Shown here piece by piece: positions 39,201 to 42,200 of a stretch of DNA of 64,000 bases. Source of the DNA: Eledone cirrhosa (Eukaryota); contig OZ024765.1 in assembly GCA_964016885.1 (NCBI GenBank), forward strand, positions 2,728,001 to 2,792,000, given 5' to 3'. Within the stretch, counting starts at the first letter, position 1. Each line of letters opens with the position of its first letter. The position numbers and the translations under genes are program-made. Under the pieces are notes generated by a model. The model saw nothing but the letters and a program-made list of their open reading frames with translations. It searched no databases and was not told the DNA's origin.

Positions 39201-42200
39201 ACACTCTAACTCTCTCTATTACAGGCAAGTCACTAGTCTGGGTTGGTATTCTAGGCATGGTAGTGTTCTATTTATACGGCATTATTGGATTTGCTATGAT
39301 GAGAAATATGTTCGACCCAAATGAATATCTTTATTGTGCTTCCTTGTGGCAGTGTACTGTCACAGTAGTTCGTTATGGTCTCATTGGAGACCTATTTGAG
39401 GTAACTACCACTCTCTATACATAAATTAGACTTATCGTCCCCTACTTTTGCTCTTTACTCTCTTTACTCTTTGTTCTTGAATGTTTGGTTGGTAGAGTCC
39501 ATAACACCAATCAAACCCCTTTTATAGCTCTGACGAATCCTACGGTTACGTAAGGAAGAAACATTGTAAGCCAATAAAAATCTTTTGATGTTGTAGACGC
39601 TCTTGTGTTCTTTTTCATATATATATATATATATATATATATATATATATATATATATATATATATATATATATATATATTCGTCCGTCTTCCAAGTTAT
39701 GTTTTACGTGTACGCAGCTTGTGTGTGTGTCTGTGTTTGGAAAGAGAGATATATTTTAATTTTAATTATATCTCATATAAAATAATACAACTGGCTTTCC
39801 ACAAAATACATATAGTTAGCACCCCAAACACAAAATTGGGATTATACTAACATATACCCTAATGTTTGTTGAGTGAGATGGTTACCAGTCAGAGTTTAGC
39901 TTAAAGCTTTCTCTGTTAGTGTATTAATTATATATATATATATATATATATATATATATATATATATATATATATATTCGTCCGTCTTCCAAGTTATGTT
40001 TTACGTGTACGCAGCTTGTGTGTGTGTCTGTGTTTGGAAAGAGAGATATATTTTAATTTTAATTATATCTCATATAAAATAATACAACTGGCTTTCCACA
40101 AAATACATATAGTTAGCACCCCAAACACAAAATTGGGATTATACTAACATATACCCTAATGTTTGTTGGGTGAGATGGTTACCAGTCAGAGTTTAGCTTA
40201 AAGCTTTCTCTGTTAGTGTATTAATTATATATATATATATATATATATATATATACACACATACATACACATATTGGACACCTATTTGAGGTACCTACGA
40301 CTCTTTCTACACATACATATAGATATACATATACACATACATATATATATATATACATACAAACATACTGGAGACCTATTTGAGGTAACGAATACTGTAT
40401 ACATACATATATACATATGTACAATTATATATACATATATATATATATATATTGTTTGACATAATTCTTAATATTTTCTTTTCCTTTTTTCTTTCTTCTC
40501 TGTCTCCCTCCCTGTTCTTCCCTCTACCGCCATCCCTCCCACACCTGCTCTTCTCTCTACCGCCATCCCTCCCACATCTGCTCTTCTCTCTACCGCCATC
40601 CCTCCCACATCTGCTCTTCTCTCTACCGCCATCCCTCCCACATCTGTTCTTCCCTCTACCGCCATCCCTCCCACATCTGCTCTGCTCTCTACCGCCATCC
40701 CTCCCACATCTGCTCTTCTCTCTACCGCCATCCCTCCCACATCTGCTCTTCTCTCTACCGCCATCCCTCCCACATCTGTTCTTCCCTCTACCGCCATCCC
40801 TCCCACATCTGCTCTGCTCTCTACCGCTATCCCTCCCACATCTGCTCTTCTCTCTACCGCCATCCCTCCCACATCTGCTCTGCTCTCTACCGCCATCCCT
40901 CCTACATCTGCTCTGCTCTCTACCGCCATCCCTCCCACATCTGCTCTTCTCTCTACCGCCATCCCTCCCACATCTGCTCTTCTCTCTACCGCCATCCCTC
41001 CCACATCTGCTCTTCTCTCTACCACCATCCCTCCCACATCTGCTCTTCTCTCTACCACCATCCCTCCCCTCCCTGTTCTTCTCTCTACCGCCATCCCTCC
41101 CACATCTGCTCTTCCCTCTACCGCCATCCCTCCCACATCTGCTCTTCTCTCTACCACCATCCCTCCCACATCTGCTCTTCCCTCTACCGCCATCCCTCCC
41201 ACATCTGCTCTTCTCTCTACCGCCATCCCTCCCACATCTGCTCTTCTCTCTACCGCCATCCCTCCCACATCTGCTCTTCTCTCTACCGCCATCCCTCCCA
41301 CATCTGCTCTTCTCTCTACCGCCATCCCTCCCACATCTGCTCTTCTCTCTACCGCTATCCCTCCCACATCTGCTCTTCCCTCTACCGCCATCCCTCCCAC
41401 ACCTGCTCTTCCCTCTACCGCTATCCCTCCCACATCTGCTCTTCTCTCTACCGCCATCCCTCCCACACCTGCTCTTCTCTCTACCGCTATCCCTCCCACA
41501 TCTGCTCTTCCCTCTACCGCCATCCCTCCCACATCTGCTCTTCTCTCTACCGCCATCCCTCCCACATCTGCTCTTCTCTCTACCGCCATCCCTCCCACAT
41601 CTGCTCTTCTCTCTACCGCTATCCCTCCCACATCTGCTCTTCCCTCTACCGCCATCCCTCCCACATCTGCTCTTCTCTCTACCGCCATCCCTCCCACACC
41701 TGCTCTTCCCTCTACCGCCATCCCTCCCACATCTGCTCTTCTCTCTACCGCCATCCCTCCCACATCTGCTCTGCTCTCTACCGCCATCCCTCCCACATCT
41801 GCTCTTCCCTCTACCGCCATCCCTCCCACACCTGCTCTTCCCTCTACCGCCGTTCCTCCCACATCTGCTCTTCTCTCTACCGCCGTTCCTCCCCCTGTCC
41901 TGTTCCTAGTCGATCAAAGCTCACAAGGACGAGGCAACATTCGCTAAATTCGGGTTGGTGGTCCTTTTCCACGTATCATTCTTCATCTTCATCACAACAA
42001 TTGGCCTTAACATCATCTTTGGTATCATCGTTGATACCTTCTCGGAACTCCGAGATCTCAAGGTAAGTCCTAACTATATTATCCTGGGGCCGGGATAAAG
42101 TCCCTTTGTCGGTGGACCTTAACAACTTTAAAGATTTTAAATCCCTCCCCACTACTTCCCATATACAAATGATAAAATATACTGTATATATACTCAAATA

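What the first reader, a model, noticed from the sequence alone, without database searches (positions are those of the whole stretch)
39225..39400. Non-canonical selectivity filter: YGLIGD instead of GLRSGGGVGD (IP3R) or GVRAGGGIGD (RyR)
The pore exon reads [22 protein letters not shown]. Relative to canonical IP3R and RyR, about four residues including the glycine run are missing, and the TM5-pore luminal loop is very short ([11 protein letters not shown]). TM6 and the zinc finger remain well conserved and there are no disablements, so the gene looks functional. Inference: this is a deeply diverged third type of IP3R/RyR-superfamily channel rather than the canonical ITPR orthologue, possibly with different ion selectivity or conductance.
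Basis: partly seen in the sequence, partly recalled or inferred. Interest (0 to 1): 0.75.

Follow-up and report, generated by a model that had tools for sequence, protein, structure and literature searches.

The report
Octopus IP3R-B channel, rebuilt pore filter
This is an intact octopus gene of a little-studied third family of calcium-release-channel relatives (likely the family published as IP3R-B, reported lost in vertebrates); its pore filter is predicted to be two residues shorter with an acidic residue moved into it, and it likely forms an intracellular cation channel that responds poorly to IP3.

Summary
The exon is real, spliced and conserved, and the gene is not the canonical IP3 receptor: the same genome holds a canonical ITPR (GLRNGGGIGD), a ryanodine receptor and a second GLIGD paralogue. 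It belongs to an ancient family found in molluscs, annelids, flatworms, hemichordates, amphioxus, Trichoplax, sponges, choanoflagellates and Capsaspora, which matches the published IP3R-B subfamily (leech paper read; founding paper not held). The filter was misread: intermediates, profile alignments and AlphaFold models give a net loss of two residues, not four or five. L-F-E, not I-G-D, stands where canonical I/V-G-D stands. 100 of 112 short-filter relatives carry one new acid inside the filter loop. The short luminal loop is RyR-like, not special. The IP3 pocket keeps six basic residues but has lost R269 and Y567 (0 of 105 each). Best reading: a tetrameric ER cation channel with altered permeation and a different or weak ligand; conduction is untested. 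Earlier scan notes report other glycine-free filters in Naegleria, not this family.

The parts
128..50555 (+). 3' half of the gene (about residues 1582 to the stop of a ~2860-aa protein); the 5' half lies upstream at G000:C26:2,597,252-2,727,228
   Evidence: tblastn of full-length relative P0010, residues 1-2847, colinear on one strand over about 181 kb; stop read at 50553-50555
24994..25140 (+). RIH-associated domain exon (end approximate)
   Evidence: PF08454 match in own genome, E 1.2e-7
37664..37787 (+). exon for S4 and the S4-S5 linker
   Evidence: loose ends of RNA-like contigs X2-X4 match its 3' end
39225..39400 (+). pore exon: S5, 14-residue luminal loop, pore helix, filter
39377..39400 (+). 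G-L-I-G-D-L-F-E: end of pore helix (G-L), filter loop I-G-D (in place of G-G-G), short helix L-F-E (in place of I/V-G-D)
   Evidence: codon places; register
41910..42062 (+). S6 (TM6) exon with gate residues F and V (canonical F and I)
   Evidence: 3' splice joint in X1 and X3
43610..43687 (+). zinc-finger exon 1 (TCFIC)
45738..45857 (+). zinc-finger exon 2 ([12 protein letters not shown])
48077..48214 (+). exon after the linker domain, start of the C-terminal helix
49749..50555 (+). last exon: coiled coil and a long tail predicted disordered
   Evidence: (pLDDT under 50 from residue 774 of P0002)

Best explanation
The window holds the 3' half of an intact octopus gene of an ancient IP3-receptor-like family, likely IP3R-B, whose product is predicted to form a tetrameric, likely ER-resident cation channel with a filter predicted to be two residues shorter and a ligand pocket likely insensitive or weakly sensitive to IP3. 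Shown: the gene, its splicing in relatives, its separate ancestry, the coexisting canonical ITPR and RyR. Inferred from alignments and models: the pore helix ends two residues earlier, I-G-D takes the place of the G-G-G loop, and L-F-E takes the place of the I/V-G-D turn, so the canonical outer acid is kept as Glu while a new Asp sits in the loop that forms the constriction. Four such acids and bulkier side chains would make a narrower, more charged filter, likely with lower conductance and higher divalent preference than IP3R or RyR. The N-terminal pocket keeps the residues near the 1- and 5-phosphates of IP3 but not the arginine near the 4-phosphate, so gating is likely by another phosphorylated messenger or by IP3 only at high levels, passed to the conserved S6 gate through the conserved zinc-finger linker.
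For: Family: 156 long proteins at E<=0.001, best 120 listed, from molluscs to Capsaspora, most with the full IP3R domain set. Identity of the window's 452-aa channel part: 97.6% O. sinensis, 76.9% Lottia 163525, 42.6% Capsaspora CAOG_04510, 29.5% canonical limpet IP3R. Trees: 20 of 20 labelled family rows on one side of a 100/99 branch against 6 canonical IP3Rs and RyR; window sister to Lottia 163525, 100/99 (one search agrees). Lottia 163525 and 236387 are among the inputs of the leech paper's IP3RA/IP3RB/RyR tree. Register: MAFFT and two hhalign runs place a 2-residue gap; gap size 2 scores best in 8 of 8 groups against full-filter sponge/choanoflagellate-type relatives; Trichoplax GFLSG-FHEAL equals sponge GLLSGGGLGEAL minus two; four unnamed relatives keep I-G at the L-F position (GLIDNIG, GLLDTIG twice, GLIEPIG). 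AlphaFold: helix 562-574, loop I575-G576-D577, helix L578-S581 against helix 694-708, loop G-G-G, helix I-G-D in a canonical control. One acid at loop position 576 or 577 in 100 of 112 short-filter rows, never both. Pocket: R265 100, K504 102, K508 102, R511 101, R568 99, K569 102 of 105; R269 and Y567 0 of 105; the own gene has the same residues. R269Q cuts IP3 binding by 80% (PMC7939385 passage), and Q is the commonest residue here (75 of 105). Zinc finger in 117 of 120, gate F..V in 114 of 120. Tetramer model: ipSAE 0.41, best of 3 controls 0.00, runs agree in at least 90% of contacts, pLDDT 57-58; the mark was reached by 17 of 29 eukaryotic paired proteins and 0 of 30 single chains, and may come from memory of solved IP3R/RyR.
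Against: No conduction, ligand or localisation data exist in my calls. Small filter changes kill mammalian pores (G2498S in IP3R2, G2506R/A in IP3R1), and the position I map to G2498 is D or E in 44 of 112 short-filter rows. The filter varies widely between subgroups ([24 protein letters not shown]) and the outer acid is kept in only 67 of 112. Against canonical IP3R alone, the window-type group scores better with a 5-residue gap (13.7 against 5.2). The models are monomers with moderate confidence at the filter (block pLDDT 77 and 62-65) and give no side-chain directions; filter residues 576-580 are not among the confident tetramer contacts. Rows counted include isoforms and close paralogues, so counts are not independent. 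I recall that Capsaspora IP3R-B gave no Ca2+ release when expressed (paper not seen). [quoted passage not shown]
Confidence: 0.6

Rival explanations
1. A non-conducting or barely conducting family member that works as a ligand sensor, scaffold or regulator, with the pore kept for folding and assembly.
For: Glycine-to-other changes in the filter abolish conduction in mammalian IP3Rs; the family filter is far more variable than S6 or the zinc finger; Capsaspora IP3R-B is cited as unable to bind IP3.
Against: An acid is kept at one of two adjacent loop positions in 100 of 112 rows, never both, which looks like selection on pore charge; GLIGD is exact in 52 of 112 rows across molluscs, annelids, nemerteans and a flatworm; gate and zinc finger are conserved.
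Confidence: 0.2
2. An ordinary IP3-gated Ca2+-release channel with lower affinity, whose odd filter behaves much like the canonical one.
For: Six basic pocket residues are conserved in about 100 of 105; R269Q leaves 20% binding and R269W some activity in HEK-3KO cells; unnamed homologues with one-residue-shorter filters such as GLRKGDIGE exist.
Against: R269, Y567 and mostly T267 are replaced together; canonical IP3R is kept beside it in the same genome; IP3R-B is cited as not binding IP3.
Confidence: 0.15
3. One reading: a 4-5 residue deletion leaves the canonical I-G-D intact directly after the pore helix, like the short filters of TRPP/TRPV channels.
For: phmmer against IP3R3 and IP3R2 draws this gap; gap size 5 scores best for the GLIGD group against canonical IP3R.
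Against: It fails for every other subgroup (best gap 2 in 6 of the other 7 against canonical, 8 of 8 against the closer full-filter relatives), needs a compensating 5-residue insertion, and is contradicted by relatives that keep I-G at the L-F position and by the secondary structure. Functionally D577 may still act like a TRP-type filter acid.
Confidence: 0.07
4. Assembly error, pseudogene or a pore corrected by alternative splicing or RNA editing.
For: The flanking intron is repetitive and holds two short copies of the exon end.
Against: Identical peptide in two other octopus species; spliced contigs with only synonymous differences; open frame; A-to-I editing cannot add the missing codons.
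Confidence: 0.01

Closest known systems
IP3R-B (IP3RB) subfamily: Alzayady et al. 2015 (not held; known to me from citing passages and recall); leech ip3rb2, PMC7992859
   Same: Third branch beside IP3RA and RyR, present in molluscs, annelids and hemichordates; several paralogues per lophotrochozoan; Lottia 163525, the window's nearest named relative in my tree, is among that paper's tree inputs.
   Different: I found no description of its filter or pocket in the papers I could search. The animal members other than sponges have the shortened filter, while sponge and choanoflagellate members keep GL(L/M)SGGGLGE.
Canonical IP3 receptors (ITPR1-3, invertebrate IP3R-A; 3JAV, 6DQJ, 12AI)
   Same: Same domain order (PF08709, PF02815, PF01365, PF08454, PF00520), about 2,600-3,000 aa, S6, zinc finger, six basic pocket residues; best fold matches.
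   Different: 29.5% identity in the channel part; filter GL-IGD-LFE for GLRN-GGG-IGD; loop 14 against 46-100 residues; R269, Y567 lost; gate I to V; long disordered tail.
Ryanodine receptors (RyR1-3; the genome's own RyR on C2)
   Same: Short S5-pore loop, homologous pore domain and zinc finger.
   Different: Half the size; no RyR or SPRY domains among the Pfam families listed; RyR keeps GLRAGGGIGD in this genome.

Membership tests
IP3R/RyR superfamily | Ins145_P3_rec, MIR, RIH, RIH-associated and ion-transport domains in order | tested here: met
   full-length relative P0010 has all five and maps over residues 1-2847 onto this gene; PF08454 and PF00520 on P0002
IP3R/RyR superfamily | S6 followed by a C2H2 zinc finger | tested here: met
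   117 of 120 relatives
IP3R/RyR superfamily | homotetramer | tested here: inconclusive
   model passes (0.41 against 0.00) but may reflect memory of solved relatives; pLDDT 57-58
Canonical IP3R (IP3R-A) | orthology with ITPR1-3 | tested here: not met
   separate clades; canonical gene on C5
Canonical IP3R (IP3R-A) | GGG(V/I)GD filter | tested here: not met
Canonical IP3R (IP3R-A) | complete IP3-binding residues | tested here: not met
   R269 and Y567 absent in 105 of 105, six basic residues kept
Canonical IP3R (IP3R-A) | IP3-gated Ca2+ release | not testable with these tools
   needs expression and recording
IP3R-B | clade distinct from IP3R-A and RyR with the published lophotrochozoan members | tested here: met
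   sister to Lottia 163525, 100/99; that protein and Lottia 236387 are inputs of the three-family tree in PMC7992859; the figure itself was not seen, so their label is inferred by exclusion; Helobdella 162846, BLAST hit of ip3rb2, resembles P0010 by eye
IP3R-B | includes Capsaspora CO.IP3R-B | tested here: inconclusive
   Capsaspora CAOG_04510 is in the clade, but its identity with CO.IP3R-B could not be checked: paper not held
IP3R-B | closer to RyR than to IP3R-A | tested here: inconclusive
   single partial RyR row, long branch, unresolved and on the other side of the 100/99 branch; tree unrooted
IP3R-B | absent from vertebrates, Drosophila and C. elegans | tested here: inconclusive
   none among the named rows of the 120 listed hits; many rows unnamed and no targeted search made
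IP3R-B | does not bind IP3 | not testable with these tools
   cited for IP3R-B in PMC9113742; sequence is consistent
Ryanodine receptors | about 5000 aa with RyR and SPRY repeats | tested here: not met
   about 2860 aa; no such Pfam families listed; RyR lies on C2

The most novel reading that the evidence does not exclude
Animal IP3R-B proteins are an orphan class of intracellular ligand-gated channels: a conserved polybasic pocket reads a messenger other than Ins(1,4,5)P3, and a rebuilt filter with a ring of acids at the constriction gives a Ca2+-selective, low-conductance pore, diversified into paralogues with different filters and used in specialised cells such as leech touch neurons. That would be a third ER Ca2+-release pathway in most invertebrate phyla, missed because vertebrates, flies and nematodes lost it.
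Probability: 0.3. Interest if true: 0.75.

Novelty: new member of a known kind. Interest (0 to 1): 0.42.

Why it matters
The family is named but, by the leech paper's own words, understudied and physiologically uncharacterised. The residue-level picture gives two direct tests: a natural two-residue-shorter filter with a relocated acid shows how far the IP3R/RyR pore can be changed, and a pocket that keeps six basic residues while dropping the 4-phosphate arginine points to an unknown ligand. Databases label these proteins ITPR1/2/3-like, so molluscan expression studies may be confusing them with the true IP3 receptor.

Tried and rejected
Sequence look-up in earlier findings gave nothing. No run on record as RNA was listed for the exon; X1-X4 are guessed RNA and belong to relatives at 90-95% likeness, so expression of this very genome's gene is not shown. 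A whole-protein search of the own genome gave no usable answer; local tblastn on neighbouring stretches replaced it. The degenerate pattern search for the canonical filter gave 16 matches against 11 in the reversed control; I translated 4 of the 10 loci fetched, of which only C5 is a channel exon, and it missed RyR because an intron splits the motif. The profile comparison A2 against A3 was cut before the pore and BLAST of the exon against a sponge protein stopped before the filter: neither informs the register. The first motif count failed by an off-by-one pattern (filter part) and was redone; a first joining of exons used a wrong donor and gave 14 stops, corrected. The Atlas gave only generic ion-transport and RyR clusters. 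One literature search found nothing. RNA editing of filter codons: no amino-acid-changing difference listed, but contigs drop rare variants. The two intronic copies of the exon end were considered as alternative pore exons and rejected: no AG acceptor in the 60 bases before them.

Full report
The observation. The window's + strand carries a 176-base exon at 39225-39400 between a pyrimidine-rich AG acceptor and a GT donor; it ends in [22 protein letters not shown]. The 58-residue peptide is 100% identical to proteins of Octopus bimaculoides and O. sinensis, so the genome is most likely an octopod's (inference). Ten exons from 30536 to 48214 join to 452 codons without a stop. A full-length relative, P0010 (2862 aa, unnamed), maps over residues 1-2847 in order on one strand of G000:C26:2,597,252-2,778,489; exact splice borders were checked only for the ten channel exons. 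Contigs of four runs guessed to be RNA, from relatives at 90-95% likeness, stop at the exon borders and continue into the flanking exons (3 of 4 at the 5' joint, 2 of 4 at the 3' joint). All 8 listed differences are synonymous.

The genome has the other channels too. A canonical IP3 receptor lies on C5, with the filter GLRNGGGIGD. A ryanodine receptor lies on C2, with GLRAGGGIG|D split by an intron. A second gene of the window's type lies on C17, reading RYGLIGDMFE in an exon of the same length.

The family. A search with the channel region found 156 long proteins, of which 120 were listed: molluscs, annelids, nemerteans, a brachiopod, a flatworm, an acoel, hemichordates, amphioxus, Trichoplax, sponges and Capsaspora CAOG_04510. 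Choanoflagellate members came from the representative search. The window's channel part is 76.9% identical to Lottia 163525, 42.6% to the Capsaspora protein and 29.5% to a canonical limpet IP3R. In a 77-row tree (258 columns, unrooted; rows picked by me from the hits, 52 from the 142 new representatives) the 20 labelled family rows fall on one side of a 100/99 branch against 6 canonical IP3Rs and RyR; the 13 non-sponge animal rows form a 100/97 set, the GLIGD type a 100/99 set (the 67-row tree agrees). The single partial RyR row is long and unresolved.

What is known. PMC7992859 (passages and supplement searches seen, figure not seen) states that the bilaterian ancestor had IP3RA, IP3RB and RyR, that IP3RB was lost in vertebrates and is absent from Drosophila and C. 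elegans, that it is understudied, and that leech ip3rb2 is highly enriched in touch neurons. Its supplementary sequence file holds Lottia 163525 and 236387, both in my clade. PMC9113742 (passages) cites Alzayady et al. 2015 for an IP3R-B that could not bind IP3. That paper is not held; ER location and lack of Ca2+ release for the Capsaspora protein are my recall. I therefore file the gene as likely IP3R-B. Eight searches aimed at the family gave no paper describing its filter; one search listed no paper with GLIGD beside 'IP3 receptor' or 'lophotrochozoan'. The unseen 2015 paper and its supplements may describe it.

The filter register. Pairwise alignment to IP3R3 suggests five missing residues with I-G-D kept. 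The relatives say otherwise. Of 118 listed proteins with a readable pore, 6 keep a full filter (GL(L/M)(S/T)GGGLGE type; sponges and unnamed eukaryote rows) and 112 have a short one. Trichoplax equals the sponge sequence minus two residues; hemichordates read GLIDGLQE, a third molluscan paralogue GFVDTPYT. MAFFT and two profile alignments put a two-residue gap there. Scoring gap sizes 0-6, size 2 is best in 8 of 8 groups against the full-filter relatives and in 6 of 8 against canonical IP3R; size 5 wins only for the GLIGD group against canonical IP3R, and size 6 for amphioxus. Four unnamed relatives, joined to the animal set at 93/90, read GLIDNIG, GLLDTIG or GLIEPIG and so keep I-G where the window has L-F. 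AlphaFold gives a 13-residue pore helix, a three-residue loop I-G-D and a short helix L-F-E-S; a canonical control gives a 15-residue helix, loop G-G-G and short helix I-G-D. So I-G-D here is a look-alike: the Asp sits at the third glycine position and the canonical Asp corresponds to Glu580 (P0002 numbering). Which two residues were lost (R-N or G-G) is ambiguous.

What that may do. In RyR1 simulations the constriction is at the first glycine and the outer acids gather Ca2+ (PMC7026163 passages); in IP3R2 the equivalent D2502 is the only formal charge of the vestibule (PMC13503717 passages). Here 100 of 112 short-filter rows have exactly one acid at loop position 576 or 577 and none has two, while the outer acid is kept in 67 of 112 (rows include isoforms). 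I infer a shift of charge into the constriction, hence a narrower and more divalent-preferring pore. Against this, mammalian filter glycine mutants are dead (PMC7939385 passages), and no side-chain geometry was available to me. The gate is F..V in 114 of 120 (canonical F..I, 8 of 8) and the zinc finger is found in 117 of 120. At the Ca2+-activation site (residue roles recalled) the first Glu is Asp in 107 of 120, the second Glu is found in 104 and the Gln in only 4. A four-copy model of the pore domain passed the tool's mark (0.41 against 0.00, pLDDT 57-58, alignment not used), which may reflect memory of solved relatives. Fold search returns IP3R3, IP3R1 and RyRs.

The ligand pocket. Mapping through the alignment to rat IP3R1, 105 full-length relatives keep R265 (100), a Lys at 504 (102), K508 (102), R511 (101), R568 (99) and K569 (102), but none keeps R269 (Gln 75, Pro 19) or Y567 (Ser 101) (a few rows are partial or misaligned). 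The window's own gene has the same residues. In IP3R2 R269 lies by the 4-phosphate and K507, R510, K569, Y567 by the 5-phosphate; R269Q loses 80% of binding. A pocket this conserved from Capsaspora to octopus likely binds something; weak IP3 binding or another phosphorylated messenger are both open.

The luminal loop. It is 14 residues in 8 of 9 family rows shown (18 in Capsaspora), 46-100 in 9 canonical rows and 18 in the own RyR by my count. The long loop, not the short one, is the special case (inference).

Other papers seen as passages only, with little bearing: PMC7016017, PMC6026295, PMC7399828, PMC3194816, PMC7789530; PMC13503717 section 8 was read whole.

Verdict. Real, intact, not the canonical IP3 receptor; a new member of a named but barely studied subfamily. 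The added value is the corrected filter register, the relocated acid and the half-changed pocket, all testable. Interest 0.42.

Noticed in passing
window 40271-40295 and 40365-40389: Two copies of about 22 bases of the pore exon's 3' end with its GT donor, in the following intron, with no AG acceptor in the 60 bases before them; they lie right after a 298-base tandem duplication, 99% alike, at about 39660-40258.
   Followed up: partly
G000:C17:27,083,251-27,098,644 (L005, L002), minus strand: Second IP3R-B-type paralogue (RYGLIGDMFE); its pore exon has the same length, with 18 identical, 21 synonymous and 19 changed codons of 58.
   Followed up: partly
G000:C2:392.30 Mb and C4:182.88 Mb (L021-L024): The RyR TM region has a 99.4-99.6% identical copy on another contig, with a 3-base loss in one exon: recent duplication or assembly duplicate.
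   Followed up: no
G000:C735:170,929-171,009 (L020): What looks like the first coding exon of the canonical ITPR lies on a small contig apart from the rest on C5.
   Followed up: no
P0070-P0112 (third molluscan paralogue group): Filters such as GFVDTPYT, GLVEGPYT and GLSDGMYN have no acid at the outer position, only the relocated one; this paralogue was not found in the own genome by the searches made.
   Followed up: partly
P0283, P0308, P0318, P0321, P0326, P0376 (unnamed representatives): Independent filter shortenings outside this family, for example GLRKGDIGE and GLRDGGIGD.
   Followed up: no
window 49749-50555: The last exon adds about 220 residues predicted disordered and rich in Ser, Pro and Arg after the coiled coil; the Capsaspora protein ends soon after the coil.
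   Followed up: no
window 38265-38690 and 7750-8400: Fragments resembling the end of a LINE-type reverse transcriptase (recalled resemblance) in introns.
   Followed up: no
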